From an uncultured Syntrophaceae bacterium (GTDB lineage: Bacteria > Desulfobacterota > Syntrophia > Syntrophales > UBA4778), in the NCBI GenBank assembly GCA_964597995.1, contig CAZRAC010000002.1:51-64050 (forward strand): DNA of 64,000 nt, written 5' to 3'. Under the pieces are notes generated by a model. The model did no database searches and was not told where the DNA came from. It worked only from the letters and a program-made list of their open reading frames with translations. The translations under genes and the position numbers were made by a program. Each line of letters starts with the position of its first letter. Within the stretch, counting starts at the first letter, position 1. This document shows, piece by piece, positions 35,067 through 52,558 of the stretch.

Positions 35067-35253
35067 GGCTCTTCGAGGATATATAATCAAAAACCCTTCG
35101 CTATCGAACGGATACATTCTGGCTTCATACCCTGGAATTGTCAACCCGGAAGTTCGATTTTGGAGGAATCAAACGTCTTTACGCCGGGACCTCTACACCG
35201 GAGATGGCCTTCGGGAGGGGTCCGCGGACTTTTTTTGGACCGTGAGCCTTGGA

Positions 35254-38212: not shown

Positions 38213-38809
38213 TCAAGATTTCCCGGCCGCTTTTTCTCTGTAACGGGCCATGATCTCCGACCGGGTGAGGATGGGGACTACAGGACGGACGTGCCGCTCG
38301 ATCAACTCCCGGCCGCCTTCTTCCCGGTCGATGAGGACGACGGCGAGCTCTACGGTCAGCCCTGCCTCCCGGGCGCTTTCGACCGCCGCGATGGTCGAGG
38401 CCCCGGTAGTCACCACGTCGTCGATGACGGCGACTTTATCGCCAGGCCTCACGTTTCCTTCTATCTTGCTCCGGGTCCCGTGGGCCTTGGCGTCCTTCCG
38501 GACGATGAATGACCGGATAGGGCGACCTTTCTCGAAGGAAATCAGGGCGAGGGCGTTGGCTATCGGGTCGGCGCCGAGGGTCAACCCCCCTGCCGCCTTC
38601 ACGTCCGTGTCCTTCAATATATCGAAGACGAGGTTGCCGATGAGGTACATCCCTTCCGGGTCGAGTGTCGTGGGTTTGCAATCGAAGTAGTAAGGGCTCT
38701 TCCTCCCCGAGGACAGCGTGAAGGGGTTATCCTCGTTGTACCGGAAAGACCGCTCGATGATGAGGTCGGCGAGCCTGTCCTTCATTTTTTCAAGGTCTTT
38801 GTTCGTCAT
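38213..38809 (-). CDS. pyrE: Orotate phosphoribosyltransferase
   Basis: 198 aa with the PRPP-binding loop KVAVIDDVVTTGAS and a type I PRTase fold. ATGA overlap with the metH stop. Confidence 0.88.
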   Translation of the reverse strand: MTNKDLEKMKDRLADLIIERSFRYNEDNPFTLSSGRKSPYYFDCKPTTLDPEGMYLIGNLVFDILKDTDVKAAGGLTLGADPIANALALISFEKGRPIRSFIVRKDAKAHGTRSKIEGNVRPGDKVAVIDDVVTTGASTIAAVESAREAGLTVELAVVLIDREEGGRELIERHVRPVVPILTRSEIMARYREKAAGKS

Positions 38810-41211
38810 GTCTTACCGAATATCTCCTCGAGTTTTCTGACCGCCTCGACGCCGTCTTTGGCGTATTCGGCGCCCAGGGATCGGGCGTAGGCCTTCGTCA
38901 CGACCGCGCCGCCGAGCAGGAATCGGCAGTCGGAACACTCCTTGGCGGCCAGCTCCATCACTTCCTTCATGCGTACCATGGTCGTCGTCATGAGGGCGGA
39001 CAACCCGACGACCGCTCCTCTGTGGGCCTTCGCTGCCTCGATGATTTTCCCTGCGGGCACGTCTTTCCCCAGGTCGATGACCCTGTAGCCGTGGTTTTTC
39101 ACCATCAGGGCGACGATGTTCTTCCCGATGTCGTGGATGTCCCCCTCGACCGTCGCGAGGATGACGGTCTTTCTGTCGTCGGCTGCAAGGTCTTCTTTGA
39201 GGTGGGGTTCGAGGTAATCCATGCCCTGCTTCATCGCCTCAGCGCTCGCGATGAGCTGGGGCAGGAAATACTCCCGCCTGTCGAACCTTCCCCCTACCTC
39301 GGTGATCGCCGGTATCATCACGTCCTCAACGAGGCCGAGGGGCGACGCCCCTGCGGCCAGGGCGGCGGCGAGCAACCTTCCTATGTCCTCCCGGTTGCCC
39401 TCCAGGATGGCCTGGTATACTTTTTCCTCCGGTGTCGTTGTTTCGGGGGTCTCTCGTTTCCCGGAGTTTGCGGCCTGTTCACTGAAACGGGCGATGAAAG
39501 CTGCCGCGTCCCCGTCCTTCTGGGTGAGGAGGTCGGAGGCGGCCTTGATGTTCATGAGCTCCGCCTGGCCGGGGTTGGCGATGGCGAGGGTCAGTCCCTT
39601 CCCGGCAGCCATGGCGAGGAAGGCGGCGTTTATCCACATTCTCCCCGGCATCCCGAAGGAGACGTTCGAGAGGCCGAGGACCGTTCTTGTGCCGAACCTG
39701 CGGGAGCACCACTCGACGGTTTCCAGCGTTTCCAGCGCCGCCCGGGGGTCCGCCGCGACGGTCATGACAAGCCCGTCGACGACCAGGTCCTCCTTCGTGA
39801 ACCCCCGCGCCCGTGCCCTCCGAAAGACATCCCGGATGACCTCCTTGCGTCTCGCCGCCGTCCGGGGGACCTCCCCCTTTGCGACGGGTAGGAGGATGAA
39901 CATGGCGCCGTATCTGGCCGCCGCCGCAAGCAACCTGTCGATTTTCTCTTCTTCGCCGGAGATTGAATTGAGCAAGGCCCGGCCCGGGTATCTCCTCAGA
40001 GCTGCTTCTATCGTCTCGACCTTCGGCGAGTCGATCACAAGGGGCAGGGCGGTGGCGACCGCGAGCACGTCGACGGCGCCAGTCATGGCCTTTACTTCGT
40101 CGATGCCGGGGACGCCGACATTGACGTCGAGGAGGTCTGCGCCTTCCCTCTCCTGGTCGCGGGCCATCTGGCGGACCAGGGTGAACCTTCCTTCCGTGAA
40201 TTCCTCCCGGAGGGCCTCCCTCAGGGCCTTTTTCCCCGTGGGGTTTATCCGCTCGCCGATGACCTTCAGGGCGCCTCCCCGGTCGAGAAAGACCGTCTTC
40301 CTCGGCGAGGTGAGGGCTGCGATCGACCTTTTCGCCGGCAGGATGGGTTTCTTGTTCTTCAAGTTCCTCTTCAGGGAACGGATGTGGTCGGGCGTCGTCC
40401 CGCAGCAGCCGCCCACTAGGGCGGCGCCGGCGGAGGCAAGCTCCTTTCCGAAGGCTCCGAACTCGGACGCGTCCATCGGGAAGACCGTCTCCCCTTCCTT
40501 GACGACCGGTATCCCGGCGTTCGGCTTCGCCGCGAGGGGGACGGTCGCGTGGGGCTTCATGGCGGAGATGAACCGCATCATGTCCTCGGGGCCGGTGGAG
40601 CAGTTGCAGCCCACGGCGTCGGCGCCGAGGCTCTGGAGGGTTACGAGGGCCGTCACCGGGTCCGTCCCGTTCAATGTCCGCCCGTCTTTCTCGAAGGTCA
40701 TCGTGACCACCGTGAAGAGGCCGGTGATCTCCCGCGCCGCGATCAAGGCGGCCCGCGCCTCCTGGATGTCCAACATGGTCTCGATGACCAGGAGGTCCAC
40801 GCCCCCTGCGATGAGCCCTTCTATCTGCTCCTTGAAGATGTCAACTGCTTCCTCGAAGTCGAGCGGACCGAAGGGCGAAACGAACCGACCCGTCGGGCCG
40901 ACGTCGCCGGCTACGAGGGCCTTCCCCTCCGCCGCTTCTTTTGCCAGTCGCGCGAGCTTCCGGTTTATCGCCTTCACGTCGGAGAGGCCGTATTCGGCGA
41001 GCTTCAGCCTGTTTGCCCCGAAGGTGGCCGTGTAGATGATGTCGGCCCCCGCCCGCCGATAGCCGGAGTGAACGGCCCGGATCGCTTCGGGATGGTCGAT
41101 ACACCAGGCCTCGGGGCAGACCCCCGACGGCATACCCATTCTGTGGAGCTCCGTCCCGGTGGCGCCGTCGAGGAGCAGGACCTTTTTCTTGAGGAGGCTC
41201 GGTATCTTCAT
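38806..41211 (-). CDS. metH: Methionine synthase core (Hcy-binding, pterin-binding and B12-binding modules, no AdoMet activation module)
   Basis: 801 aa with the Hcy S-methyltransferase N-terminus (LLDGATGTEL ... GGCCGTTP), a pterin-binding barrel, and the B12-binding DxHxxG motif (GDIHDIGKNIV). It ends right after the B12 Rossmann domain. Confidence 0.88.
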   Translation of the reverse strand: MKIPSLLKKKVLLLDGATGTELHRMGMPSGVCPEAWCIDHPEAIRAVHSGYRRAGADIIYTATFGANRLKLAEYGLSDVKAINRKLARLAKEAAEGKALVAGDVGPTGRFVSPFGPLDFEEAVDIFKEQIEGLIAGGVDLLVIETMLDIQEARAALIAAREITGLFTVVTMTFEKDGRTLNGTDPVTALVTLQSLGADAVGCNCSTGPEDMMRFISAMKPHATVPLAAKPNAGIPVVKEGETVFPMDASEFGAFGKELASAGAALVGGCCGTTPDHIRSLKRNLKNKKPILPAKRSIAALTSPRKTVFLDRGGALKVIGERINPTGKKALREALREEFTEGRFTLVRQMARDQEREGADLLDVNVGVPGIDEVKAMTGAVDVLAVATALPLVIDSPKVETIEAALRRYPGRALLNSISGEEEKIDRLLAAAARYGAMFILLPVAKGEVPRTAARRKEVIRDVFRRARARGFTKEDLVVDGLVMTVAADPRAALETLETVEWCSRRFGTRTVLGLSNVSFGMPGRMWINAAFLAMAAGKGLTLAIANPGQAELMNIKAASDLLTQKDGDAAAFIARFSEQAANSGKRETPETTTPEEKVYQAILEGNREDIGRLLAAALAAGASPLGLVEDVMIPAITEVGGRFDRREYFLPQLIASAEAMKQGMDYLEPHLKEDLAADDRKTVILATVEGDIHDIGKNIVALMVKNHGYRVIDLGKDVPAGKIIEAAKAHRGAVVGLSALMTTTMVRMKEVMELAAKECSDCRFLLGGAVVTKAYARSLGAEYAKDGVEAVRKLEEIFGKT

Positions 41212-41563
41212 CTTCCGGTGCGCAATCGTTGCAAAATCGAAAAACGGCGATTTACAGTAAACTTTGAAGGCGCCGATACTACCATCAACCCGATATGGGT
41301 GTCCAGTTTTTAGGGAGAGTTATAGAATCGCTTCTTCGATTAGAAGCCCATCCGGGTCCGCCACCAGCGTGAACAGGCGACCTTTGAGGTGAACTCGCGC
41401 AGAATCATAGCGCAGCCTGTTTCTGCGCGAGGCGATGAGGACTAAGGCGAGCGATTCATCTCTCTCGACCTTGCATTTGTTCGCTTATGGCTGCATGCAA
41501 GTTGTCAAGCGTACAATGCACAGTGTCCTCAACCACTTACCACTCTTGGTATCATAGAAAGAG

Positions 41564-44500
41564 TTACGATTTCCAATACGAGCCGCGACGATGCACGTGT
41601 TTATGGCTAGACCACAAGTTATGAAGACTCTCCCTCAACGCAAGGGTGTCCTGATGTTTTAGGTCGCGTTCTCCCCAAAGAAGCCACACTAAGGTTTGGT
41701 GGGTATGATTTAAATAACACTTCATCAAATCGGCGCGTAAGTACAGTAAGTGGGAGCGGAACGTGTCTTCATCGGCCTTGAACTTTCGATATATTGTGGC
41801 GACACGTCCGCCTTGATCGTATAAGTCCCATTCGCCTTGTCTATTAACTAAACTTAGTTGCTCACAAATTGCTGGGGCAGGAACCGTAATGCCGCTCACC
41901 TGATTGAGTGGACTGTGGTAGCCTTCCCAAGCAAAGCTGTAAACAGGCACTTCAACAGGAATCCCCGTACTGCTATGCCTCGAAAAAGCTTTCCGTATAT
42001 CGCGCTTTACTCTACCATCTTGTTCGCGGAGGTGTGATCCGAAACGGGGAGACCAAGGAATTTCGCCTGCGTATGTGTAGTAGTCTTCCGTTGGCTCCGG
42101 GATAGCCATATTGCCTGGGTACTCGACCGTCTTAAAAGCTGCCAATAGCTTTTTGACATGACCGCGTTCCACCAGCAAGCCCCGGAGAAAAGTAAATACA
42201 CACCTTGGGTCATCCTTTGAAGACTGCTCAATGTAACCGTCTAGAAGCACCCACGGGCCATCCTGACCATCCACTTCTTTAAGATGTAGCAGATGATTGT
42301 AATTTGGAATGGGGCCATCTGTGATCCATGCCCGAGGTTCTGCAGGAGTCTTGGTGAATAAATCGGGTAACGGGGGTTGCCAAGTCTTCGCAGGTTCAGG
42401 GAAGCTGGGATCAATGTCGGCGTCAGATGAGCGTTCGCCAGCTCGCCAATCCGGTAAAGTGCCCTCGTCGAACCTAATTCCATACATTTCAAAGAAAGCT
42501 ATCCAAGAATATTTCTTCCCGTATCTGTCTGTCTTTGGGACTCCACGGCTTTCAGCTCGCCATGATGAGCCGCGGATTCTCTTGTCTATCTCGGCAAACT
42601 GACTTGACCTGTATCCCAATTGCGCGATCCTGTATTCGATTTGATGCCTAACTTTTCGATATATTGAGTTATCAAAGTCGTAGTTTCTTCTATGCGGAAT
42701 CAGCCTGCCAATGGTATAGTTTCCGAAGTCCATAAGGATTGACCCCTTGGCTTCGGCTATATCAGAGTCGCTGATTTTATCCGGTTCCAAAAATGGTGAG
42801 GGAATTTGACTGAACGTAGGTTGTAAGTGCGTTCTCTGCTCATCTGGTATGCATCCGGGAGCCAACCGGGTTGCCAGATTGATTACACCCCGGGCATAGT
42901 CCCTCATCAAGACATGGCAGGTAGCGTGCGGAGCTTTAGGAACGAACATCTCCTCTACCAATTTGCGTGCAAAGTCAGGGAGTCCCTTACGTAGCTCTTC
43001 ACCCCGAGGATCGGCCCAAAGCGACATCACAACGCCGTAACACGCCGCAAGCATACGCTCAGGTACATAAGGGTCATTTATTTCCAGTGAGTTCAGTGTC
43101 AGATCAAATAGAGCCTTTGGATTGCTGCATCCAAACCAATACAACGCACGTGTGGCATGATCACGTAGCAGACGGACTGTGCTTGTGAGGGTCCACATCA
43201 TCCACCGTGCTTTCAACTGATCCCGGGGGCTTAGAGCCTGCACCGACCGCCAGCGTTGCTCTAACCACTTTATATCTTCAAGTATATCTTCTTGCCTGCT
43301 GCGAACCCATTCCGTCCATCGGCGATCGCGTTCCGCCATCGACATTGAGCGAAGAACTTCGTTCAAGAAATCCACATTCAGGGGATGGGCTTGAGCCGCA
43401 CGGGTGGTCCAGAGCCTATAGAATAGGTCACGGTGTCCTTGCGGCTGTTGAGCAGTAAGGGTGGCTAATTGTGATACTGTCTCACTATCCAAGAACTCCT
43501 TGTCCAACCATGCCGAGTTATAAAGAGCCTTTGTCCGGAGTGGTTCGTCCAACAGGGTCCAGAGTTGCTCTCTGTATCTGCGGCGAGGCGTCAGCCCCAC
43601 AAGAGCCGTAAAGATATCAGCTGCGAGTGGATGCTGCTCTCCTACATCACCCGCAATCATTTTTGTTGCTTCCGCTTGTAACCATCTCATAAACTCATCA
43701 GACCCTGCATACTTCTCAATCAGTGCATCGGCTACGAGATGACCGGCTAAGGCATCATAAACGACAGCTATCTGATTACCACCCAAACGGGGGTCGGATA
43801 CTCGGATGAGCACACGTTCCTGTTCCAGGGCTCGGATAATGCTCTGATCCCACGGACGAACATGATCGCCTAACCGTTCGCGTAATTCATCAAGATCAAG
43901 GCTGCGCGTTTTCGCTTCCCATAAACACAAGCCGATCTTGCTAAGCACGGTGCGAATGTCAGACTCAAAGTAACGCCAGGAACGAGGCGAGAGCTGTGCA
44001 ATGCGTTCTGCTACCTGTTCCAAGTATCGCTCAAACAATGAGGTCAGTGAGCCAGGCATCGCTTCAACACCTACGAGCCGCTCACGTTTAGGATTTGTCA
44101 CCTCGCAAAACATGCGCAACGTGAGTGGATGTTGGAGAAGTTCCAATGGTAGCGCTGCATCCGATGGGTCGATCTGGTAATATTTGAAATAACGGCGCAC
44201 TGCATCATAGATGTCGTGTCCAAAGCCTGGTATCTCCAATCGTTCAACCCCATCGGGCAGCGCCTCTTTAACAAAGTCTGAACGAAGAGTGCACACCACC
44301 ACGACATATGGATACCGGGCTAGCATCTCATTCAGTGATGCAAGTTGCTGCTTCCAGTCGCGAGGATCCTCTGCTTCGTTCAAGCCGTCAAGGACGATGG
44401 GTAAACGTCTGCCCGCACGCTGACCTGCAGCGTCTACGGCAGCGACTAACGCTGCGAAACTCTCTACAGGGCGGCCGTTGATAACAAATCTGCGAGCAAG

Positions 44501-45598
44501 ATCATCAAGGGTTCCTCGGGCTGCCAGGTCACGTCCGTGGATCAGGATACCGGCAGGACGGTTCTCTACCGGGGCAGTGAGTTGGGCTGATAGGTGAGTC
44601 TTACCATATCCTGCATCAGCAACAACCGCGATCAAGCGATCCTCCAGCGCCTTGCGAAAATCATCGAGGAGCCGATTAGCAGCGAAAATATCTGCCACCA
44701 CGTTAGTGGCCCGCAAAACGACAGGACGTCGCTCTCTCCTCAATCGGCGAAGCAAGACATTCCACCCAAGATCAGGACCGCCTCGGGCAGTAAGTGCTTG
44801 ATGCACGATTTCATAATCTCCACCTGCCAAAGCGGTATGCGTCTGACCTAAGGTGTCTGCAACGAGAGTTGCGGTCACGACTAACCTACTGACCTCTTCC
44901 ACGATGTCCTTAGGCAAACTTGCCAGCTCAGTGCTGACAGCAGCAACACCATCCCGAAGCCGGTTTGTCACCGCTGTCAGATCAGACCAAGCTTCCTCCT
45001 CACCCAATGTGCGACGAAGTGAACGCTCGGCATCCACAATTTGGTGTGCTTCAGGCAGCCATCTTCCTGAAATACGCGCAACCGATTCATTATGCTTGTC
45101 GCTCAGCAAGTCCGGCGTAAGAACGAGTTCGCCGAAATAGGTACCGCGAAGGATTTCTGCGGGCCCACTGAGATGTGTTTCAACATCAGCGGCCGTCCAA
45201 AGATGGAGCCTCATGTGTGTTTGCAAACCATAGAACCATTCCTGATCACCTTCCGTCAGAGTGTGTCTTGTCCAGAGAATCCAGTCGGTCAATTCGGGAA
45301 GAATTTCTTTTGTCTTCCTGATAGCCTCCTCAATTTGTCTTCTCCGTGTATTTCCGATGGCCCGTCCACTCTGAAGGTCATACCACCTGCATTGCCAGCC
45401 ATACCAGCGCCCAGGTTCTCCCAGAGGGCACCTTGCGTGTAGTTTTAAGTGGAACTCAACCCCTGGTTGATTAGCAAGGGCGCGAAAATCACCATATTGC
45501 CCATAGTGCAGGCGAATGATTGCACGGCACAGTTGCTCGAAGTTGCGGGTTTCATCCCCAGGCAATGTCGCAAATATTTTCCAGTTCAATGCAGGCAC
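41564..45598 (-). CDS. NACHT/STAND-family NTPase with a distinct N-terminal domain and an ~880-aa C-terminal region of unknown fold
   Basis: 1344 aa, GTG start preceded by GGGAGGGAGG. Walker A is ADAGYGKT (aa 327-334, nt 44597-44620) and Walker B is IVLDGLNE (aa 401-408, nt 44375-44398). VVVVCTLRSD and LEIPGFG...YF follow in NACHT order. Confidence 0.75.
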   Translation of the reverse strand: MPALNWKIFATLPGDETRNFEQLCRAIIRLHYGQYGDFRALANQPGVEFHLKLHARCPLGEPGRWYGWQCRWYDLQSGRAIGNTRRRQIEEAIRKTKEILPELTDWILWTRHTLTEGDQEWFYGLQTHMRLHLWTAADVETHLSGPAEILRGTYFGELVLTPDLLSDKHNESVARISGRWLPEAHQIVDAERSLRRTLGEEEAWSDLTAVTNRLRDGVAAVSTELASLPKDIVEEVSRLVVTATLVADTLGQTHTALAGGDYEIVHQALTARGGPDLGWNVLLRRLRRERRPVVLRATNVVADIFAANRLLDDFRKALEDRLIAVVADAGYGKTHLSAQLTAPVENRPAGILIHGRDLAARGTLDDLARRFVINGRPVESFAALVAAVDAAGQRAGRRLPIVLDGLNEAEDPRDWKQQLASLNEMLARYPYVVVVCTLRSDFVKEALPDGVERLEIPGFGHDIYDAVRRYFKYYQIDPSDAALPLELLQHPLTLRMFCEVTNPKRERLVGVEAMPGSLTSLFERYLEQVAERIAQLSPRSWRYFESDIRTVLSKIGLCLWEAKTRSLDLDELRERLGDHVRPWDQSIIRALEQERVLIRVSDPRLGGNQIAVVYDALAGHLVADALIEKYAGSDEFMRWLQAEATKMIAGDVGEQHPLAADIFTALVGLTPRRRYREQLWTLLDEPLRTKALYNSAWLDKEFLDSETVSQLATLTAQQPQGHRDLFYRLWTTRAAQAHPLNVDFLNEVLRSMSMAERDRRWTEWVRSRQEDILEDIKWLEQRWRSVQALSPRDQLKARWMMWTLTSTVRLLRDHATRALYWFGCSNPKALFDLTLNSLEINDPYVPERMLAACYGVVMSLWADPRGEELRKGLPDFARKLVEEMFVPKAPHATCHVLMRDYARGVINLATRLAPGCIPDEQRTHLQPTFSQIPSPFLEPDKISDSDIAEAKGSILMDFGNYTIGRLIPHRRNYDFDNSIYRKVRHQIEYRIAQLGYRSSQFAEIDKRIRGSSWRAESRGVPKTDRYGKKYSWIAFFEMYGIRFDEGTLPDWRAGERSSDADIDPSFPEPAKTWQPPLPDLFTKTPAEPRAWITDGPIPNYNHLLHLKEVDGQDGPWVLLDGYIEQSSKDDPRCVFTFLRGLLVERGHVKKLLAAFKTVEYPGNMAIPEPTEDYYTYAGEIPWSPRFGSHLREQDGRVKRDIRKAFSRHSSTGIPVEVPVYSFAWEGYHSPLNQVSGITVPAPAICEQLSLVNRQGEWDLYDQGGRVATIYRKFKADEDTFRSHLLYLRADLMKCYLNHTHQTLVWLLWGERDLKHQDTLALRESLHNLWSSHKHVHRRGSYWKS

Positions 45599-45616
45599 AA
45601 CGTCCTCCCTCCCATC

Positions 45617-46030
45617 TCAAGAAGACCTGCCACGCCCGTACCCTGTATTAGGATAGTTATGGGCCGAATACACTTCTACCTTAGCACCTTTATCTAAGAG
45701 AACCTTGAGGAATGCAGAAACATCCGCCTCCTCTGTAGTAATAACTACTTTGTTGCCATCGACATCAACCTGAACGTCATAAAGTAGTTGCTCCAATTCT
45801 GCCGGACCAAGAATGTACAGATTTGCTGCTCTCAAGAGTTCCAACATTCCGTCTGTGAACCGATCTTGGGGAACTGTATTACTCTGGTTCTTGTCCGCAT
45901 CATCCTTTACCTGACCAGCAAGCTGGCTAAGCAAGTCTTTGGCTTTTTCTGCATCGCTGACTTCTTTGAAGTGCCCGATCATAACAAGATTCATGGAGTG
46001 TTCAGAGCCATAGCCCTTCCAAATCTTCAT
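45617..46030 (-). CDS. Hypothetical 137-aa protein (no family recognised), translationally coupled between the radical SAM and NACHT genes
   Basis: The ORF track starts at 46045. The ATG at 46030 is preceded by GGGAGG at 7 nt and overlaps the upstream stop (ATGA). No TM segment or signal peptide is seen. The tail is Gly/Arg/Tyr-rich (YSAHNYPNTGYGRGRSS). Confidence 0.6.
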   Translation of the reverse strand: MKIWKGYGSEHSMNLVMIGHFKEVSDAEKAKDLLSQLAGQVKDDADKNQSNTVPQDRFTDGMLELLRAANLYILGPAELEQLLYDVQVDVDGNKVVITTEEADVSAFLKVLLDKGAKVEVYSAHNYPNTGYGRGRSS

Positions 46031-46965
46031 TTTGCAACCTCCCACATTGATTCAAGCATTCTTAGAGCTTCCATTACCCCTCCCGACGCAATGGGGATAC
46101 CATGTTTATCATACGATGATCTTTTGATTGTTCCTGATGCATCGATATGAGCATATGCACGAAGCTCAGTTTCTCTGGGCAAGGGGTCCGCAATGGGCAT
46201 ACTGTCCCGACCTACTTCGCTTACAGCTATACGAATGGGGCCAGCATAAGAGTGCACCCACCTGCGCAGTGCTTGCATTGTGCTATTGTCAATACCGCTT
46301 CCCTTGTTTGTAGGGAGCTGCGGAAGTAGGAGAAACTCAGATGCACCGACTTCTGCTGCCAGCGCGATAGCTGCGTCTATTTCGGGAAGAGTGAGGCAGT
46401 TTACCAGATAATTGATGCCAAAGGGAGCACACTCACGAATCACTTCAAGCTTTTGGAGTAGTGCTGAAAAAGACCGGTTACGTATCTTCTCATATGTGGC
46501 GCCGATGCCGTCCATGCTGACGCGGATGAAATGTACATTTCCCTTTAAGGTAGCGGCCAATCGGCCATCGATGTGGTGTCCATGTGTTGTGAATGTCGCA
46601 GCCATGCCGGTGTTTTGGGTAACATGGTTGCATATATGAAGCAGGTTTTTGTACAAAGTTGGTTCACCGCCTCCGAAACCGACACCAATACACCCATTTG
46701 CATCAAGCTCGTCTAACCAATCAATTAACCGGCCCATACTAAGCATGGCCGGATTTTTGGGCGCAAAACAATGAGGACAATCAAGATCACATGCATTCGC
46801 TAACGCAATCGAGACATGGCGTGGCGCAGTGGACCACAACTCCTGAGCCACTTTAGCGTCGTCGATAAGAAGGTTCAGTCCTGTCTCGCGACTAAAAAGG
46901 AGGATGCCATCGGGGCCTGTTCGCACTTTGAACCGATGGAGCATTTTAACTATACCAGGCCGCAT
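46027..46965 (-). CDS. Radical SAM enzyme (no SPASM/twitch auxiliary Cys cluster evident)
   Basis: 312 aa with CxxxCxxC at C59/C63/C66 (ANACDLDCPHCF, nt 46768-46791) and the SAM-binding GGGEP (aa 98-102). The C-terminal half has only two isolated Cys. Confidence 0.8.
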   Translation of the reverse strand: MRPGIVKMLHRFKVRTGPDGILLFSRETGLNLLIDDAKVAQELWSTAPRHVSIALANACDLDCPHCFAPKNPAMLSMGRLIDWLDELDANGCIGVGFGGGEPTLYKNLLHICNHVTQNTGMAATFTTHGHHIDGRLAATLKGNVHFIRVSMDGIGATYEKIRNRSFSALLQKLEVIRECAPFGINYLVNCLTLPEIDAAIALAAEVGASEFLLLPQLPTNKGSGIDNSTMQALRRWVHSYAGPIRIAVSEVGRDSMPIADPLPRETELRAYAHIDASGTIKRSSYDKHGIPIASGGVMEALRMLESMWEVAK

Positions 46966-46972
46966 ATTTGTA

Positions 46973-47001
46973 ATTTTATCAAGAGTAAATCACATCGTTA
47001 A
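46973..47001 (-). promoter_or_regulatory. Putative sigma70-type promoter of the cassette (TTAACG-N17-TAAAAT)
   Basis: Read on the minus strand, the -35 TTAACG is at 47001-46996 and the -10 TAAAAT at 46978-46973, ending 7 nt before the ATG at 46965. There is no SD before that ATG, so the mRNA may be leaderless or short-leader. Confidence 0.3.
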
Positions 47002-47018
47002 TTCTAATTCTCCCTCGG

Positions 47019-47291
47019 TCAGGTCAGTGCCCGGTCATACCACATAAGTAGCTTCGGGTCTTCCTGGAGGACGTTCTCGGGAATCTTGCGGGCCACGGTG
47101 ATGATGGTGGCGTAGTCGCGCTCCTGCCAGGCCTTCTTAAATCCGGCGCGGACGGCCTCGTACTTGTCGGAGACGTACTTGAAGAGCAGGGTGAGGATGT
47201 AGTCCTTGTACTGAGAGGCGTCCATGCCGCCCCGCAGTTCGTCACAGGATTGCCAGAGGGAGGAATAGAGCTGCGATTTTTTCAGGGCCAT
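47019..47291 (-). pseudogene. hsdM: Truncated type I R-M methyltransferase (HsdM-like) remnant
   Basis: 90-aa ORF. The first about 44 aa (MALKKSQLYSSLWQSCDELRGGMDASQYKDYILTLLFKYVSDKY) match the HsdM N-terminal domain. No AdoMet-binding or NPPY/F catalytic region follows, and the ORF is far shorter than any functional HsdM. Confidence 0.65.
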
Positions 47292-47405: not shown

Positions 47406-47453
47406 GGAATGGCAAAAATGGTGATCCTCGATTTTTTTGCGAGTCGATCAATG

Positions 47454-48083
47454 CTATGCCTTTATGGGCTCGATGCCGGCAAGGGCCGTAACGGATTTTT
47501 CGGGCACGAGCAGGCAGGCCTCCGTCAGTCGGACGCCGAGCTGGTCGAGGCCGAGGGTCCTGTATATCCACTCCTGGTTTTGCAGCGGAAAGTCGCCGTA
47601 GCCCGCGGAAAAACGCCTTTTCGTGAGTCTGCGGTTTTCCCGGCGGAGTTTCCCTTCGAGGTACGCCATCATCCAGTCCAGGGCAAGGTCCACCACTTCG
47701 CTCGCCGCCGCGTCCAGGACCACGGCGCGGGTCATTCTGCCCCGCTCTGTATCTTTTTTGATTTCCTCCATGATGGCGGCCCCGGCGGTTGCGCCCATCA
47801 GCATGACTTCGTCCGAATGCCTGAGCAGCCCGGCGAGGCTTCTGCTCGCCAGCGTCTCGCCGTTCGCGAGTTTGATTTCCGTGTCCTTTTCCCTGTCGAT
47901 GGCCAACCGGACGGCAACACCGGCAAGGCGGATGAGGGAGAGGGCGTCGTCGATCGCACGGTCTGTTTCCTCCGCCTCGTGGGGCTTGAGGCGGGTCGTC
48001 CCTTTCCGGTATCCCAGCCGTCTGTAGATCTTTTCTTTCGGTGCCGCGAGGGTTATGGTGTCAAAAAAAAATGAACGTGCCAT
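47454..48083 (-). CDS. Stand-alone methionine synthase reactivation (AdoMet-binding, Met_synt_B12) domain protein
   Basis: 209 aa. RFSAGYGDFPLQNQEWIYRTLGLDQLGVRLTEACLLVPEKSVTALAGI matches the MetH activation-domain signature (RxxxGYxxxP ... P.KS). Confidence 0.78.
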   Translation of the reverse strand: MARSFFFDTITLAAPKEKIYRRLGYRKGTTRLKPHEAEETDRAIDDALSLIRLAGVAVRLAIDREKDTEIKLANGETLASRSLAGLLRHSDEVMLMGATAGAAIMEEIKKDTERGRMTRAVVLDAAASEVVDLALDWMMAYLEGKLRRENRRLTKRRFSAGYGDFPLQNQEWIYRTLGLDQLGVRLTEACLLVPEKSVTALAGIEPIKA

Positions 48084-48446: not shown

Positions 48447-48481
48447 ATCCCTGGGCCTTGATGGGTCTGGGGATTTTTTTT
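48447..48481 (+). terminator. Intrinsic terminator (riboswitch expression platform)
   Basis: 11-bp stem AUCCCUGGGCC / GGUCUGGGGAU (three G-U pairs) with a 6-nt loop, followed by a T8 run at 48474-48481, immediately before the first cob gene. Confidence 0.65.
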
Positions 48482-48491
48482 GGTGAGGGCG

Positions 48492-51056
48492 ATGACGGCA
48501 GGGCACGGCGGTAATGTGAGACAACTAGCTCTACTGGCGGGGGTCCCGGAAGGCGAGCTGCTCGACTTTTCGGCGAACATAAACCCCCTCGGCCCCCCCG
48601 AATGGCTCCGCACCGTCGTCAGCTCTCGCCTCCATGAGCTCTCCCGCTACCCGGACCCCGATTGCCGGGCCTTGACCGAGACCGCCGCTCGCCGTTACGG
48701 CGTAAGGCCCGGGGAGGTCATCGCCGGGAACGGCTCTTCGGAGATCATCCGCTTCATCCCCCGTGTTTTCCCGGCGGAGTGCGCCCTCATCCCCGTCCCC
48801 GCCTATGCGGATTACGCCCTGGCCGCGCAACTGGCCGGCCTCCGGGTGGAAAAGTTCTTTGCGCGGGAGGAAGACGGGTTCATCCCGGACATTGACGCAT
48901 TCGGGAAGGCGGTCGGGGAGAGGGACATCGTCTTCCTCGGCCAGCCCAACAACCCGACGGGCGCCCTGTGCGACGCCGACCGTATCCGCCGGCTCGCCGG
49001 CGAGCATCCTTCCACCCTCTTTGTCGTCGATGAGGCCTTCGCCGACTTCGTCGAGGGTATGGAAAGACTGACGCAAAAAAGGCCGCCGAACGTCCTCGTC
49101 CTCTGCTCGCTCACGAAGTTCTATGCCTTGCCGGGCCTGAGGCTGGGCCTCGCCGTCGGGGACGAGGCGGTGGTCGGCCGGCTGCGCGACGCCCTGCCGC
49201 CCTGGTCGGTGAACGCCCTCGCGCAGGCCGTGGGTGAGGAGGCCTTGAGAGATGAGGACTACGCGCAACGGACGAGGGAACTCGTGCGGCGGGAGCGGGA
49301 GAGGCTTGCCGGTTGGCTGGCGGGGATTCCCGGCCTGACCGTTTACCCCGGACAGGCGAATTTTCTCCTCTTGCGGCTGGACCGGAAGGGGACGACCGCA
49401 CCCCGCCTTGCCGAGCAGCTTCTCAAGCGGGGGATCGCCGTGCGCGTTTGCGACAATTTCGACGGGCTCGACGAGCGGTTTCTCCGGGTCGCCGTGCGGA
49501 CGGAAGAGGAAAACGCCCGTTTGGTTGATGCAGTTGCGACGGTGCTCGGCAGACCGCGGAAGGCGGTGAAAAAGAGAACACCCGCCGTGATGTTTCAGGG
49601 GACGGCATCGAATGCGGGCAAGAGCGTACTCGCGGCGGCCTTCTGCCGGATCCTCCTCCAGGACGGTTACAGCCCCGCGCCTTTTAAGGCCCAGAACATG
49701 TCGCTCAATTCCTTCGTCACCGGGGAGGGGGGAGAAATGGGACGGGCGCAGGTCGTCCAGGCCCAGGCCTGCCGCATCACTCCGGACGTGCGGATGAACC
49801 CGATCCTCCTGAAACCGAACAGCGACACGGGCGCGCAGGTCATCGTCCTGGGGAGGCCGGTGGGGAACATGGATGTAGAGACCTATATCCGTTTCAAATC
49901 AAGGGCCTTCGACACGGTTAAGGATGCCTACGATTCCCTCGCCCAAAATCACGACGTGATGGTCCTCGAGGGGGCCGGCAGCCCCGCGGAGGTGAACCTC
50001 AAGCACCACGATATCGTGAACATGCAGATGGCCCGCCATGCGGGTGCCCCCGTCCTCATCGTGGGCGACATCGACCGGGGAGGCGTCTTCGCTTCCTTTG
50101 TGGGCACGATGGAGTTACTCGCGGAATGGGAAAGGGCGTTGGTCGCGGGCTTCGTCGTCAACCGTTTTCGCGGGGATGAAAGACTCTTGCAGGACGCCCT
50201 CGATTATACAATGCGTCACACCGGCAGGCCGACCTTCGGCATCGTCCCCTATCTCCAAGACCTCGGGCTGCCGGAGGAGGATTCGGTCGCCTTCAAGGCG
50301 GCCGCCGCCGAGGCGCCTCCCGGAGGCGAGGCCGTGGAGGTGGGGCTCGTGGACCTTCCCCATATATCGAACTTTACCGATTTCGACTCCCTGCGCCTGG
50401 AGCCCGACGTCCGTCTGCGGGTCATCCGGTCGTCCCGCGACATCGGGAACCCCGACGCACTCATCATCCCCGGCAGCAAGAACGTGATCGGCGACCTGGA
50501 TTATCTCTTCCAGAACGGGCTGGCGCGGAAGGTCATGGAGCTCGCCGCCTCCGGGAAAACGGAGGTGGTGGGGATATGCGGGGGTTTTCAGATCCTGGGC
50601 GAAGGGATCGCAGACCCCTACGGGGTCGAGTCCGACCGGCGCCGGGTGAGGGGACTGGGGATTTTGCCCGTCACGACGACGCTTGAGGAGGAAAAGACCC
50701 TGGCCTGCGTCAAGGGGAGGCACGTCGAGTCCGGCCTCACCGTGCAGGGTTACGAGATCCACCACGGCCGGACCGTGGGACCGGGCCTTGTTCCCGCCGT
50801 CGAGCGGGAAGACGGGGAGATCCTGGGCGTGCGGACGGCGGAGGGCCTGGCCTGGGGGACATATCTTCACGGGATATTCGACGCCGACGATTTCCGCCGG
50901 TGGTTCGTCGACAGGCTGCGGGTGCGGCGGGGGCTGGCGCCCGCGGGGAGAACCCTTTCCCGTTACGACCTGGAGCCCGCTTTCGACCGGCTGGCAGCGG
51001 TGGTGCGCCGGAGCCTGAGGATAGGAGAAATCTACCGGCTGATGGGCCTCCGATGA
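48492..51056 (+). CDS. cobQ: Fusion protein: L-threonine-O-3-phosphate decarboxylase (CobD, class I/II aminotransferase fold) + cobyric acid synthase (CobQ/CbiP)
   Basis: A single ORF. The N-terminal about 360 aa are CobD-like (GHGGN ... NPLGPP ... NPTG ... [14 protein letters not shown]). From about nt 49590 it is CobQ-like ([13 protein letters not shown] ... GATase domain [10 protein letters not shown]). The ATG at 48492 is preferred over the ORF-track start at 48480. Confidence 0.8.
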
Positions 51057-52006
51057 GACTGGAGTACCAGATCCTCGCGGCCTTCGTCCTGGACCTGCTG
51101 CTCGGCGACCCGCGGGGAATGCCCCACCCGGTGAAGATGATCGGGGGTTTCGCCCTCCGCATAGAAGGGCCCTGCCGTAGACTCGCGAGGCCCCGGACGG
51201 CCGGCGTCATCGCCGCCGCAGCGGTCATCGGCGTGACGGCGCTCGCGGCGGGAGCGGTGATATATGCAGCGGGCCTCATCCACCCGCTCGCCGCCGACGC
51301 GGTATCGACCGCTCTTCTTTACACGAGCTTCGCCGCGGGGGACCTTGCCGGCCACAGCAGGAGCGTCCTCCGGGCCCTGGAGGCGGGGGACCTCGGCGAA
51401 GCGAGGAGGCGTGTCTCCTGGATGGTCGGCCGTGATACGGAGGGTCTCGACGAGCGGGGGGTAACGCGGGCCGCCGTCGAGAGCGTGGCGGAGAACACCG
51501 TCGACGGCGTCATCGCCCCGTTATTCTACGCCGCGGTCGCGGGGCCGGTCGGCGCCCTGGTATACAAGGCCGTGAACACGCTCGACTCAACCTTCGGTTA
51601 CCGCAACGAGCGTTATGCCGAGTTCGGTTGGGCCTCGGCCCGGATCGACGATGTCGCCAATTATGTTCCGGCGCGGCTTGCCGTACCGCTCATCGCGCTG
51701 GCCGCTTTCATCGTCGGGATGGATAGCCGCAGGGCCTGGGAAGTGGCGCTCAGGGACGGGCGGAACCATCGGAGCCCAAACTCGGGCTGGGCGGAGGCAG
51801 CCTTTGCCGGTGCCCTGGGGGTGAGGCTCGGCGGACCGGTCGTTAGAGGCGGTAAACCGGAGACGATGCCGTCGCTCGGGGATCCGCGGCGGGAGCTTGA
51901 GTCGTCCCAGATCGGGAAGGCGAACGCTCTCATGTTCGCGGCGGCGACCCTCGCGACGCTTTTGTTCACGGGAACGAGGGCGGCGTTCGTTTGGCTGGTC
52001 GCATGA
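51053..52006 (+). CDS. cbiB: Adenosylcobinamide-phosphate synthase
   Basis: The ATG at 51053 forms an ATGA overlap with the previous stop. [21 protein letters not shown] is the CbiB N-terminal signature. The protein is a TM protein. Confidence 0.85.
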
Positions 52007-52557
52007 CGGAGATTCGTGACGGAGGCATGGTGACGGGGGCGGGGCGTGTGCTGCTTTTCACCGGCGACGGCAAGGGGAAGACGACCGCGGCCCTCGGTAT
52101 GGCCCTGAGAGCGGCGGGACACGGGATGAAGACACTGGTCGTCCAGTTCATAAAGGCCGACCAGGGGACGGGAGAGATCGCGGCCTGCCGGTTTATCCCC
52201 GAGATCGAGGTCGTCCAGACGGGGCGCGGCTTTCTGCCTGACCGGGAAAGTCCCGCTTTCGAGGAACACCGCCGGGCGGCCCGGGAGGGACTGGCGCTTG
52301 CCCTGAGGGCGCTCGCGGAGCGGCGCTGCGAAATCCTCGTCCTCGACGAGGTCTGCCCTGCCGTGGCGAAGGGGTTATTAGAGGAGAAGGACGTGCTCGA
52401 GGTAATCGAAAGAAGCGGCCCGGAGGTCTGCATGGTCCTGACGGGCCGGGGTGCAACGCCGGGCCTCATGGCTGCTGCCGATACGGTGACGGAGATGAAG
52501 GCCCTCCGGCATGGCCTGACGAAGGGCCTCACGGCAAGGAAGGGAGTGGAGTTTTAA
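52003..52557 (+). CDS. cobO: Cob(I)yrinic acid a,c-diamide adenosyltransferase (CobA/CobO/BtuR type)
   Basis: P-loop FTGDGKGKTTAALG and VVQFIKA. ATGA overlap at 52003. Confidence 0.85.
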   Translation: MTEIRDGGMVTGAGRVLLFTGDGKGKTTAALGMALRAAGHGMKTLVVQFIKADQGTGEIAACRFIPEIEVVQTGRGFLPDRESPAFEEHRRAAREGLALALRALAERRCEILVLDEVCPAVAKGLLEEKDVLEVIERSGPEVCMVLTGRGATPGLMAAADTVTEMKALRHGLTKGLTARKGVEF

Positions 52558-52558
52558 G

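What the first reader, a model, noticed from the sequence alone, without database searches (positions are those of the whole stretch)
41470..47018. Low-G+C three-gene operon (radical SAM + 137-aa orphan + 1344-aa NACHT NTPase): candidate undescribed defence system
Seen in the sequence: three co-directional minus-strand genes leave no room for internal promoters. The radical SAM stop (TGA 46029-46027) overlaps the ATG of the small gene (46030-46028, ATGA), which is preceded by GGGAGG. The small gene stop (45619-45617) is followed 18 nt later by the GTG of the NTPase (45598), which is preceded by GGGAGGGAGG. Counted lines inside the block are 43% (42601-42660) and 52% G+C (44101-44160), against 60% (40081-40140) and 72% (49381-49440) outside. 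The block therefore looks horizontally acquired, yet it carries no integrase or transposase. It lies directly beside a truncated hsdM-like gene. Established knowledge: NACHT/STAND NTPases (Avs proteins, bacterial NLR-related proteins) act as phage sensors, and viperin-family radical SAM enzymes are antiviral effectors. I know of no described system that couples a radical SAM enzyme and a small partner protein to a NACHT NTPase. Inference: the NACHT protein is the sensor or switch, the radical SAM enzyme is an effector or maturase, and the small protein is an adaptor or substrate.
Basis: partly seen in the sequence, partly recalled or inferred. Interest (0 to 1): 0.92.

Follow-up and report, generated by a model that had tools for sequence, protein, structure and literature searches.

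The report
Known three-gene Avs2 anti-phage operon
This low-G+C block is a real, intact anti-phage gene trio, but it is not new: it is another copy of the Avs2 operon with two helper genes (Avap1, Avap2) that was described and tested in Klebsiella in 2024.

Summary
The sequence observation holds. Three tightly packed minus-strand genes (radical SAM 46965-46027, 137-aa gene 46030-45617, 1344-aa NTPase 45598-41564) lie in a 47-55% G+C block within a 59-69% G+C housekeeping neighbourhood.

The claim of novelty does not hold.
- The NTPase is an Avs2-family STAND protein (PADLOC Avs2, E=1e-123) with an N-terminal Mrr-like nuclease.
- The 137-aa "orphan" is a full-length DUF6375/PF19902 protein (E=4e-52, more than 1000 homologues).
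- This exact trio is the published KpAvs2 operon: Avap1 (radical SAM), Avap2 (DUF6375) and Avs2 (Béchon et al., Nat Commun 2024, PMC11564622). That operon was shown to defend E. coli by abortive infection.
- In 80 genomes from at least a dozen phyla the order rSAM-DUF6375-Avs2 is kept in 79 (the 80th contig ends early). Two of them are genomes pictured in that paper.

The likely effector is the Avs2 nuclease, not the radical SAM enzyme.

- The neighbouring "hsdM" ORF is a chimera. Its 3' end belongs to the acquired block.
- Avap1 resembles peptide-modifying radical SAM enzymes more than viperin.
- Avap2's N-terminal tail is the most conserved segment of the system, and this is unexplained.

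Verdict: new member of a known kind; low interest.

The parts
46027..46965 (-). avap1: radical SAM protein, 312 aa. CxxxCxxC at C59/C63/C66 and GGGEP at 98-102. It has an extra N-terminal beta domain (aa 1-47) and no C-terminal Cys cluster.
   Evidence: Pfam PF04055 E=2e-13. Motifs are invariant in 70-75 homologues. AF2 model pLDDT 88. Nearest PDB folds are SkfB at TMq 0.74 and SuiB at 0.66-0.69, then viperins at about 0.60-0.67. It sits directly upstream of DUF6375 in 80/80 loci.
45617..46030 (-). avap2: DUF6375 protein, 137 aa. Its start overlaps the avap1 stop (ATGA).
   Evidence: Pfam PF19902 E=4e-52, full length. 1070 homologues. AF2 pLDDT 85, ferredoxin-like beta-alpha-beta-beta-alpha-beta fold with two inserted helices. 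No informative PDB or viral fold neighbour. Residues 1-21 show 81% mean pairwise identity across loci.
41564..45598 (-). avs2: Avs2-family STAND NTPase, 1344 aa, GTG start.
   Evidence: PADLOC Avs2 PDLC02164 E=1.4e-123 over aa 2-966. NCBIfam Avs2 E=1.3e-87. PDB 9o4e (EcAvs2) E=1.5e-28 over aa 323-967. 70% identical over its full length to the Avs2 of Nitrospirae JdFR-85 (L007), a genome shown in Fig. 1B of PMC11564622.
45224..45598 (-). Avs2 aa 1-125: Mrr-like PD-(D/E)xK nuclease effector domain (E21, G46-V-E48-F-H50, G67-W-Q69-C-R71).
   Evidence: Matches the N-terminus of Avs4 (NF041815 aa 1-103, E=8.5e-6) and of the PADLOC Avs2 profile from position 2. The motif columns are invariant in 63/64 homologues. 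Position 71 is K in 44 and R in 19, and R here. Mean identity 0.59.
44639..45223 (-). [quoted passage not shown] This is the region to which Avap2 docks in KpAvs2.
   Evidence: Assigned by position relative to the nuclease and Walker A motifs; I did not test the helical character here. It is the second least conserved part of Avs2 after the C-terminal sensor (mean identity 0.41). Its role is taken from PMC11564622 (AF-Multimer plus co-IP) and from the EcAvs2 cryo-EM preprint.
44159..44638 (-). Avs2 aa 321-480: STAND NTPase core, with Walker A G330-x-G-K333-T334 and Walker B D404...E408, E410.
   Evidence: G330, G332, K333, T334, D404, E408 and E410 are invariant in 64/64 homologues. Weak Pfam NACHT/AAA_22 hits lie here.
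41564..44158 (-). Avs2 aa 481-1344 plus stop: helical (TPR-like) region and C-terminal sensor.
   Evidence: Avs2 profiles cover up to about aa 966. The last 380 aa or so are the least conserved part (mean identity 0.37). That is expected for the phage-protein recognition pocket, which in KpAvs2 is removed by deletion of residues 1066-1352.
46973..47001 (-). Promoter-like site (TTAACG-17-TGnTAAAAT) 8 nt upstream of the avap1 ATG.
   Evidence: Consensus scan only, 9/12 matches with an extended -10 TG. The total count of such sites in the region is not above shuffles, so this is weak evidence.
47019..47291 (-). 90-aa chimeric methyltransferase remnant. aa 1 to about 45 is an HsdM N-terminus. aa 43-90 is the C-terminus of a PglX-like/type II MTase. 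The recombination junction is near 47160.
   Evidence: PF12161 E=3.7e-10 for aa 10-56. PADLOC MTase_I covers aa 1-62 and MTase_II/PglX C-terminus covers aa 43-90. The last 48 aa are 88% identical to the end of the 1097-aa MTase directly upstream of avap1 in L007. blastn colinearity with L007 starts at 47159.
41571..47159 (-). Extent of the horizontally acquired block, defined by DNA colinearity with the nearest relative.
   Evidence: blastn: window 47159-41571 aligns with L007 6884-12469 at 70.6% over 5638 nt. G+C is 0.47-0.55 against 0.57-0.70 in the flanks.

Best explanation
The block is a horizontally acquired, intact copy of the KpAvs2-type three-gene Avs2 anti-phage operon: avap1 (radical SAM), avap2 (DUF6375) and avs2.

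How it most likely works:
- Shown for homologues, inferred here: the C-terminal helical/sensor part of Avs2 binds a phage protein. That can be the large terminase or small phage-specific proteins such as Ksap1/Ksap2.
- Binding lets the ATP-bound STAND module form a tetramer.
- The tetramer brings the N-terminal Mrr-like nuclease domains together. They degrade DNA and abort the infection.
- Avap2 is constitutively bound to the helical extension between nuclease and ATPase. It is needed for full defence.
- Avap1 is an auxiliary radical SAM enzyme needed only against some phages. Its chemistry is unknown.

My inferences:
- Avap1 and Avap2 are made in fixed proportion through the conserved ATGA translational coupling.
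- Avap1 is more likely to act on a protein or peptide than on a nucleotide.
- Avap2's invariant N-terminal tail is a docking or substrate element for a conserved partner (Avap1 or the nuclease domain).
For: - Avs2 identity: PADLOC Avs2 E=1.4e-123, NCBIfam Avs2 E=1.3e-87, PDB 9o4e EcAvs2 E=1.5e-28.
- Accessory genes meet the published operational definition, namely neighbours of an Avs2 that hit PF19902 and PF04055 (definition; hits).
- The trio order is conserved in 79/80 loci from at least a dozen phyla, including archaea. Among them are Nitrospirae JdFR-85 (63/74/70% identity for the three proteins) and Syntrophobacterales Delta_02. Both genomes are listed in Fig. 1B of PMC11564622 as carrying the KpAvs2 operon.
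- Walker A/B and nuclease motif columns are invariant.
- ATGA coupling is kept in 64/80 loci.
- Defence context: a Vibrio plasmid copy lies beside BREX. L097/L098 copies are nested in a type I R-M operon. Flanking ORFs of 45 loci hit many R-M and other defence models. A methyltransferase remnant sits next door here.
- Mechanism: PMC11564622 and the EcAvs2 cryo-EM preprint 10.64898/2026.04.30.721860.
- Avap1 fold is nearest to SkfB/SuiB. The viperin model is hit only over the core.
Against: - I could not align the proteins to KpAvs2 itself, because the sequence and supplements were not retrievable. The link is transitive, through loci named in the paper.
- The NCBIfam Avs2 score (295 bits) is far below that model's equivalog cut-off (1000), so this is a divergent Avs2 subfamily.
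- The nuclease catalytic lysine, which corresponds by number to K71 of KpAvs2 (K71A abolishes defence), is arginine here.
- The source is an uncultured organism known only from metagenome contigs, so expression and function are untested.
- The roles I give to Avap1 and Avap2 are inference only.
Confidence: 0.9

Rival explanations
1. This would be a previously undescribed defence system in which the NACHT protein senses infection and the radical SAM enzyme is the effector (viperin-like, making an antiviral small molecule), with the small protein as adaptor or substrate.
For: The best PADLOC hit of the radical SAM protein is pVip (E=1.7e-15). Viperins are among its structural neighbours (TMq about 0.60-0.67). 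Neither accessory protein has its own model in PADLOC-DB v2.0.0.
Against: - The system is described (PMC11564622).
- The viperin matches cover only the generic core (aa 52-160). NCBIfam viperin scores 41 bits against a cut-off of 180.
- The Avs2 protein carries its own conserved nuclease effector.
- In KpAvs2 the nuclease mutant loses defence, Avap1 is dispensable against SECphi18, and no pVip-type nucleotides were found.
Confidence: 0.03
2. A RiPP-like or cofactor biosynthetic cassette. The radical SAM enzyme would mature the small protein or peptide, and the STAND protein would act as a regulator, with no role in immunity.
For: - Avap1's closest solved folds are the RiPP maturases SkfB and SuiB.
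- Its best NCBIfam hits are peptide and cofactor maturases.
- The ATGA-coupled small gene has an invariant, apparently unstructured N-terminal tail.
Against: - Avap1 has no SPASM/twitch cysteines after residue 190.
- No RRE is detectable.
- No protease, transporter or immunity gene is present in the block.
- Avap2 is a folded 137-aa ferredoxin-like domain, not a leader-core peptide.
- The pair is always followed by Avs2 (79/79 evaluable loci) and often sits among R-M/BREX genes.
- The Klebsiella operon has a phage-defence phenotype.
Confidence: 0.03
3. A member of the known family that is attenuated or inactive in this genome. The nuclease would be weakened by the K71R change, and the locus would be a decaying defence island, as the deleted methyltransferase next door suggests.
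For: - R replaces the catalytic-motif K at position 71. K71A abolishes KpAvs2 defence.
- The adjacent methyltransferase has suffered a deletion of roughly 1000 codons.
Against: - All three ORFs are intact over 5.4 kb, with every other motif preserved.
- R71 is found in 19 of the 63 homologues with a residue at that position, in otherwise well-conserved nuclease domains. K and R alternate between close relatives, which points to a tolerated conservative variant.
- Contigs 99.98-100% identical over the aligned stretch recur in several independent metagenome assemblies.
Confidence: 0.08

Closest known systems
KpAvs2 operon of Klebsiella pneumoniae S_15PV (Avap1-Avap2-KpAvs2; Béchon et al., Nat Commun 2024, PMC11564622)
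   Same: - Three genes: a radical SAM protein (PF04055), a DUF6375 protein (PF19902) and an Avs2.
- The Avs2 has an N-terminal Mrr-like nuclease, a helical extension, a STAND NTPase and a long C-terminal sensor.
- Sizes are similar (1344 aa here; the KpAvs2 residue numbering runs to at least 1352). The Walker A lysine is at 333 here and 337 there.
- The operon sits among defence genes.
- Two genomes shown in the paper's Fig. 1B carry loci that are collinear with this one (63-74% identity for L007; 43-55% best-segment identity for L021).
   Different: - Different host (an uncultured organism from metagenomes, G+C about 60-69%) and an untested phage spectrum.
- Position 71 of the nuclease motif is R rather than K.
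- The C-terminal sensor is divergent (family mean identity 0.37), so the triggers may differ.
EcAvs2 (single-gene AVAST type 2; cryo-EM structure 9O4E, bioRxiv 10.64898/2026.04.30.721860)
   Same: The STAND ATPase and TPR region are homologous (aa 323-967, E=1.5e-28). The expected mechanism is the same: terminase-induced C4 tetramerisation, with a helical extension between effector and ATPase that contributes to the target interface.
   Different: EcAvs2 works alone, has a different and uncharacterised N-terminal effector rather than an Mrr nuclease, and has no Avap partners.
Prokaryotic viperins (pVip)
   Same: Radical SAM partial TIM-barrel fold, and an association with anti-phage defence.
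   Different: - Only the core matches (41 bits against a cut-off of 180).
- Avap1 has an extra N-terminal beta domain and a different C-terminal part.
- For the Klebsiella homologue, no ddh-nucleotides were detected and no NTP pocket was predicted.
Peptide-modifying radical SAM maturases SkfB / SuiB
   Same: These are the best structural matches to the Avap1 model (TMq 0.74 for SkfB and 0.66-0.69 for SuiB) and the best PDB sequence hit (SkfB, E=7e-7). Avap1 is also encoded next to a small partner protein.
   Different: Avap1 has no auxiliary Fe-S cluster cysteines and no detectable RRE. The partner is a folded domain, not a leader-core peptide.

Membership tests
KpAvs2-type three-gene Avs2 operon (Avap1-Avap2-Avs2) | The large gene is an Avs2-family STAND NTPase | tested here: met
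   PADLOC Avs2 PDLC02164 E=1.4e-123, plus five other Avs2 models. NCBIfam Avs2 E=1.3e-87, though at 295 bits it is below the 1000-bit equivalog cut-off. PDB EcAvs2 9o4e E=1.5e-28.
KpAvs2-type three-gene Avs2 operon (Avap1-Avap2-Avs2) | A neighbour within two genes hits PF19902/DUF6375 (the paper's definition of Avap2) | tested here: met
   PF19902 E=4.3e-52, aa 1-132 of 137. The gene lies 18 nt upstream of avs2. The definition is quoted.
KpAvs2-type three-gene Avs2 operon (Avap1-Avap2-Avs2) | A neighbour within two genes hits PF04055/radical SAM (the paper's definition of Avap1) | tested here: met
   PF04055 E=2.3e-13. CxxxCxxC and GGGEP motifs are invariant in homologues.
KpAvs2-type three-gene Avs2 operon (Avap1-Avap2-Avs2) | Collinear with loci that the paper itself lists as KpAvs2-operon homologues | tested here: met
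   L007 (Nitrospirae JdFR-85) shows 63/74/70% identity for the three proteins and 70.6% DNA identity over 5.6 kb. L021 (Syntrophobacterales Delta_02) shows 50/55/43%.
KpAvs2-type three-gene Avs2 operon (Avap1-Avap2-Avs2) | N-terminal Mrr-like PD-(D/E)xK nuclease with an intact catalytic motif (K71 in KpAvs2) | tested here: inconclusive
   The domain is present and highly conserved (E21, E48 and Q69 invariant). However, position 71 is R here, against K in 44 and R in 19 homologues. Catalytic competence of the R variant is unknown.
KpAvs2-type three-gene Avs2 operon (Avap1-Avap2-Avs2) | Walker A lysine of the STAND NTPase (K337 in KpAvs2) | tested here: met
   G330-Y-G-K333-T334. G, K and T are invariant in 64/64 homologues. 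Walker B D404/E408/E410 are also invariant.
KpAvs2-type three-gene Avs2 operon (Avap1-Avap2-Avs2) | Direct sequence similarity to KpAvs2, Avap1 and Avap2 of K. pneumoniae S_15PV | not tested
   The sequences could not be retrieved. No supplementary files are held, and no Klebsiella copy appeared among the plasmid hits or the 80 loci kept from genome contigs.
KpAvs2-type three-gene Avs2 operon (Avap1-Avap2-Avs2) | [quoted passage not shown] | not testable with these tools
   Experimental.
Prokaryotic viperin (pVip) | Full-length match to a viperin model above its cut-off | tested here: not met
   NF038283 scores 41.2 bits against a cut-off of 180, covering aa 53-160 only. PADLOC pVip covers aa 52-160 of a 257-position profile.
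SPASM/twitch peptide-modifying radical SAM maturases (SkfB, SuiB, PqqE) | C-terminal cysteine ligands for auxiliary Fe-S cluster(s) | tested here: not met
   There is no cysteine after C190 in the window protein. The only other conserved cysteines are C92 and C112.
SPASM/twitch peptide-modifying radical SAM maturases (SkfB, SuiB, PqqE) | N-terminal RiPP recognition element (PqqD-like) | tested here: not met
   A profile of aa 1-52 finds no RRE-containing PDB chain at E<=10, and no Pfam family is found at E<=10.
   16.1 bits against a cut-off of 26.7, E=0.01. The protein is a STAND NTPase of the Avs2 type rather than a recognisable NACHT.
Type I R-M methyltransferase HsdM (the neighbouring ORF) | Full-length HsdM with the N6_Mtase catalytic domain | tested here: not met
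   Only the N-terminal domain (aa 10-56) matches. TIGR00497 scores 21 bits against a cut-off of 243. The C-terminal 48 aa belong to a different, PglX-like MTase.

The most novel reading that the evidence does not exclude
Avap1 may not be a small-molecule enzyme. It could be a protein-directed radical SAM enzyme whose target or docking element is the invariant, intrinsically flexible N-terminal tail of Avap2 (MK[IV]WxGYGSEHS). Avap2 would then be a radical-SAM-modified or radical-SAM-gated co-factor that licenses or restrains the Avs2 nuclease.

This would be the first post-translational radical chemistry found inside an NLR-like immune receptor complex. It would also explain two published observations: removing Avap2 in the presence of Avap1 and Avs2 appears toxic, and Avap1 matters only for some phages.
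Probability: 0.12. Interest if true: 0.7.

Novelty: new member of a known kind. Interest (0 to 1): 0.22.

Why it matters
As a discovery it matters little. The system has been named and shown to work since 2024, and the Avs2 activation mechanism now has a cryo-EM structure.

Its remaining value is as comparative material for the one open question in that system, namely what Avap1 and Avap2 do.
- The trio is an almost indivisible module across bacteria and archaea (79/79 evaluable loci), with conserved translational coupling of avap1 and avap2.
- Avap1 looks more like peptide-modifying radical SAM enzymes than like viperin, yet it lacks their auxiliary clusters and RRE.
- The most conserved element of the whole system is a tail of about 20 residues in Avap2. 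The published docking site does not explain this.
- K and R alternate at the nuclease catalytic position.

Each of these points can be tested by experiment in the existing KpAvs2 system.

Tried and rejected
1. **Empty site.** I looked for contigs carrying the flanking 209-aa gene or metH without the island.
   - L090 looked empty from its gene calls but is 100% identical to the window.
   - The only other metH contig ends 33 nt upstream of metH.
   - No empty site was found, so the insertion event is not reconstructed.
2. **RRE in Avap1.** The N-terminal motif (GPDGxxxFxRxTGxNxLxDE...W) reminded me of PqqD-like elements. A profile search of PDB sequences and a Pfam scan both found nothing. Rejected as unsupported.
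3. **Avap2 fold neighbours.**
   - PDB Foldseek gave only generic or designed ferredoxin folds at E>0.02.
   - The viral library gave nothing at E<0.03.
   - A PDB sequence profile gave only chance ribosomal hits.
4. **Glyoxalase/VOC idea for Avap2.** This came from one JGI name, "PhnB". The model's topology is ferredoxin-like, so the idea is not supported.
5. **Terminal repeats, tRNA, integrase.** Only short chance-level repeats were found, and no tRNA.
6. **KpAvs2 sequence.** The paper's supplements are not held, and plasmid tblastn found Vibrio, Deinococcus and cyanobacterial copies but no Klebsiella.
7. **Defence-neighbourhood enrichment.** A batch PADLOC/Pfam scan of 111 flanking ORFs showed many R-M and other defence hits. 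The tool reports per-family counts only and I had no control set, so I treat this as qualitative.
8. **Glycyl-radical and Lys-Trp crosslink analogies for the Avap2 tail.** These rest on recall only. No test was possible, so I kept them only as part of the low-probability novel case.

Full report
**1. Observation.** The finding's sequence-level statements are accurate.
- The minus strand carries three ORFs: 46965-46027 (312 aa, ATG), 46030-45617 (137 aa) and 45598-41564 (1344 aa, GTG).
- The first stop overlaps the second start as ATGA (46030-46027), and GGGAGG lies 7 nt upstream.
- The second stop (45619-45617) is followed 18 nt later by the GTG, with GGGAGGGAGG in between.
- G+C is 0.47-0.55 from 41500 to 47000, against 0.57-0.70 on both sides.
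- The flanks are housekeeping genes: GAPDH, MnmG, a MetH core, and cobalamin biosynthesis.
- There is no integrase, transposase or tRNA.
- A promoter-like site (47001-46973, minus strand) lies just upstream of the first ATG, but it is only a consensus match.

**2. What the genes are.**
- *The 1344-aa protein.* It gets only sub-threshold NACHT/AAA hits in Pfam. It matches Avs2 models strongly:
  - PADLOC PDLC02164, E=1.4e-123 over residues 2-966;
  - NCBIfam Avs2, E=1.3e-87, although below that model's strict cut-off;
  - the solved EcAvs2 structure 9o4e, E=1.5e-28 over residues 323-967.
- *Its N-terminus.* The first ~120 residues match the N-terminus of Avs4. They carry a PD-(D/E)xK-type motif (E21, G-V-E48-F-H, G-W-Q69-C-R71) that is nearly invariant among homologues.
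- *The 137-aa protein.* It is not an orphan. It is a full-length member of Pfam DUF6375/PF19902 (E=4e-52), with 1070 homologues in the protein collection.
- *The 312-aa protein.* It is a radical SAM enzyme (PF04055). Viperin models match it only over the generic core.

**3. It is a described system.** A full-text search for DUF6375 returned one paper, Béchon et al., Nat Commun 2024 (PMC11564622).
- The paper describes a set of Avs2 homologues, typified by KpAvs2 of Klebsiella pneumoniae, that sit in a three-gene operon. The partners are a radical SAM protein (named Avap1) and a PF19902/DUF6375 protein (Avap2).
- The operon protects E. coli by abortive infection with DNA degradation.
- Nuclease (K71A), Walker A (K337A) and C-terminal deletion mutants lose defence.
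- Avap2 binds the helical bundle between nuclease and NTPase (AF-Multimer and co-IP) and is required.
- Avap1 is needed against T2 but not against SECphi18.
- No viperin-type nucleotides were found.
- Deleting Avap2 was not possible, which suggests toxicity.
- About 5% of Avs2 homologues have Avap2, and most of those also have Avap1.
- I found no later paper on the Avap proteins.
- A 2026 preprint gives the EcAvs2-terminase cryo-EM structure. It shows a terminase-induced C4 tetramer, in which the helical extension between effector and ATPase forms part of the target interface. It also states that most Avs2 proteins use Mrr-like nucleases as effectors.

**4. Membership test.**
- The paper defines Avap2 and Avap1 as neighbours of an Avs2 that hit PF19902 and PF04055. 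This locus meets both definitions.
- A scan of one genome per species with a DUF6375 alignment found 169 relatives, of which 80 loci were kept.
- tblastn with the three window proteins shows rSAM, then DUF6375, then Avs2 on one strand in 79 loci. In the 80th, the contig ends after DUF6375.
- The ATGA overlap is present in 64/80 loci. The DUF6375-Avs2 spacer is 29 nt or less in 75 of 79.
- Two of the loci come from genomes shown in the paper's Fig. 1B:
  - Nitrospirae JdFR-85 (L007) has 63/74/70% identity for the three proteins, the Avs2 match covering nearly its full length, and 70.6% DNA identity over 5.6 kb;
  - Syntrophobacterales Delta_02 (L021) has 50/55/43% identity.
- The hosts span Nitrospirae, Cyanobacteria, Actinobacteria, Firmicutes, Planctomycetes, Acidobacteria, Chloroflexi, Proteobacteria, Deinococcus and methanogenic archaea.
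- The trio also occurs on 16 plasmids.
- I could not compare directly with KpAvs2, because its sequence was not retrievable. That is the one untested membership row.

**5. A variant residue.** Position 71 of the nuclease QxK motif is Arg here.
- Among the 63 full-length homologues with a residue at that position, it is K in 44 and R in 19.
- The three nearest relatives have K. The next group, at 44-56% identity, mostly has R.
- The change is therefore recurrent and conservative.
- Whether it alters activity is unknown. KpAvs2 K71A is inactive.

**6. What can be added about the accessory proteins.**
- *Avap1 structure.* AF2 gives a confident model (pLDDT 88). The nearest solved structures are the peptide maturases SkfB (TMq 0.74) and SuiB (0.66-0.69), followed by viperins (about 0.60-0.67), BlsE, MoaA and anSME. 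SkfB is also the best PDB sequence hit.
- *Avap1 limits.* It lacks auxiliary-cluster cysteines and has no detectable RRE. It is therefore not a member of that family, although a protein or peptide substrate seems more likely than a nucleotide.
- *Avap2 structure.* The model is confident (pLDDT 85, pTM 0.80) and shows a ferredoxin-like beta-alpha-beta-beta-alpha-beta domain with two inserted helices. Residues 1-11 are low-confidence. There is no informative structural neighbour.
- *Conservation, as mean pairwise identity across 64 loci.*
  - Avap2 residues 1-21: 0.81, the most conserved stretch of the whole system.
  - Avap1 core: 0.60.
  - Avs2 nuclease: 0.59.
  - Avs2 NTPase: 0.57.
  - Helical extension, where Avap2 is reported to dock: 0.41.
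- *Invariant Avap2 residues.* M1, W4, G8, E10, H11, S12, N14, L15, V16, G19 and F21 are invariant in 81/81 sequences, and S122-A-H124 is nearly so.
- *Possible functional site.* By the topology of the fold (my inference), the start of beta-1 and the ends of beta-3 and beta-4 lie at one pole. These residues probably form one polar site there.
- *Duplicated variant.* A tandem-duplicated Avap2 (P0068) keeps the SEHSxN motif only in repeat 1 and the SAH motif only in repeat 2. That hints at a site built across a dimer.
- *Open point.* An adaptor that merely binds a poorly conserved helix bundle does not account for these features. They suggest a second, conserved partner, either Avap1 or the nuclease domain. 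This is inference, and I could not run a complex prediction.

**7. The neighbour and the island boundary.**
- The 90-aa ORF at 47291-47019 is a chimera.
  - Residues 1 to about 45 are the N-terminus of a type I HsdM.
  - Residues 43-90 are the C-terminus of a PglX-like/type II methyltransferase.
  - Those last 48 residues are 88% identical to the end of the 1097-aa methyltransferase that lies directly upstream of avap1 in L007.
- DNA colinearity with L007 starts at 47159 and ends at 41571.
- The acquired block therefore included the 3' end of that methyltransferase gene. A deletion or recombination then joined it to an hsdM 5' end.
- Related copies sit inside a type I R-M operon (L097/L098) and next to BREX on a Vibrio plasmid. 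Flanking ORFs of 45 loci hit many R-M and other defence models (qualitative only, with no control set).
- The island sits between a MetH core gene (801 aa, no activation domain) and a 209-aa gene with a weak match to the MetH activation domain.
- I found no empty site.

**8. Verdict.**
- The defence interpretation is right in outline.
- The novelty claim, the "orphan" label and the proposed effector role of the radical SAM enzyme are not supported.
- This is a new member of a known, experimentally characterised kind.
- The remaining interest lies in the still-unknown roles of Avap1 and Avap2. The conservation pattern of the Avap2 tail gives a concrete lead that can be tested.

Noticed in passing
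window 47019-47291 (-), junction near 47160: The 'truncated hsdM' ORF is a chimera. An HsdM N-terminus (aa 1 to about 45) is fused in frame to the last 48 aa of a PglX-like/type II methyltransferase. That second gene, at full length (1097 aa), lies directly upstream of avap1 in Nitrospirae JdFR-85 (88% identity). The fusion implies a deletion of roughly 1000 codons and moves the island boundary to about 47159.
   Followed up: yes
window 45968-46030 (-), Avap2 residues 1-21: This N-terminal tail is the most conserved segment of the whole three-gene system (81% mean pairwise identity across at least a dozen phyla, with 11 invariant residues). Yet AF2 models residues 1-11 as disordered. The published docking of Avap2 on the poorly conserved helical bundle does not explain this.
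   Followed up: partly
window 45386-45388 (-), Avs2 residue 71: The lysine of the nuclease QxK motif is arginine here. Among the 63 homologues with a residue at that position, K occurs in 44 and R in 19, and the two alternate between close relatives. The functional consequence is unknown.
   Followed up: partly
window 38806-41211 (-) and 47454-48083 (-): The island lies between a MetH core gene without an activation domain and a 209-aa gene with a weak match to the MetH activation domain (Pfam E=0.009; TIGR02082 positions 1123-1171). It may therefore separate two functionally linked genes. A cobalamin biosynthesis cluster follows at 48480-54000 (+).
   Followed up: partly
window 47409-48074 (+) versus 47454-48083 (-): Two long ORFs overlap almost completely on opposite strands. 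JGI gene calls pick the minus-strand 209-aa ORF, while ENA calls pick the plus-strand 218/221-aa ORF. Only the minus-strand product has any family match, and that match is weak.
   Followed up: no
L097 and L098, 7000-14400: This is a variant of the trio with a tandem-duplicated Avap2 (237 aa). A DDE transposase is inserted between avap2 and avs2. The whole unit is nested inside a type I R-M operon, between hsdS and hsdR.
   Followed up: partly
L096 (Vibrio parahaemolyticus plasmid pLH80-1), 8045-14731: The trio is carried on Vibrio plasmids: 12 of the 16 plasmid hits are Vibrio, and 11 of the 16 are predicted conjugative. In pLH80-1 (itself typed non-mobilizable) the Avs2 gene is split by an IS3 transposase, and the locus abuts BREX genes brxL/pglZ.
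   Followed up: partly
L049 and L071 (Methanotrichaceae / Methanothrix MAGs): The complete trio also occurs in methanogenic archaea, so the module crosses the domain boundary.
   Followed up: no
L001/L087 and L095 (JGI sample 3300010347): In this metagenome the assembly breaks between the island and metH. One contig ends about 450 nt past the avs2 stop, roughly 100 nt into metH. The other ends 33 nt upstream of the metH start. This could reflect strain heterogeneity at the insertion site, but I could not show it.
   Followed up: partly
window 41394-41431: An inverted repeat with 14-nt arms, 93% complementary and with a 10-nt loop, lies about 130 nt downstream of the avs2 stop. It has no T-run, so it is not a canonical intrinsic terminator.
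   Followed up: no
window 34140-35144 (-): A second, unrelated radical SAM gene (PF04055 plus the Radical_SAM_C domain) lies in the housekeeping flank next to mnmG. It is not part of the island.
   Followed up: no
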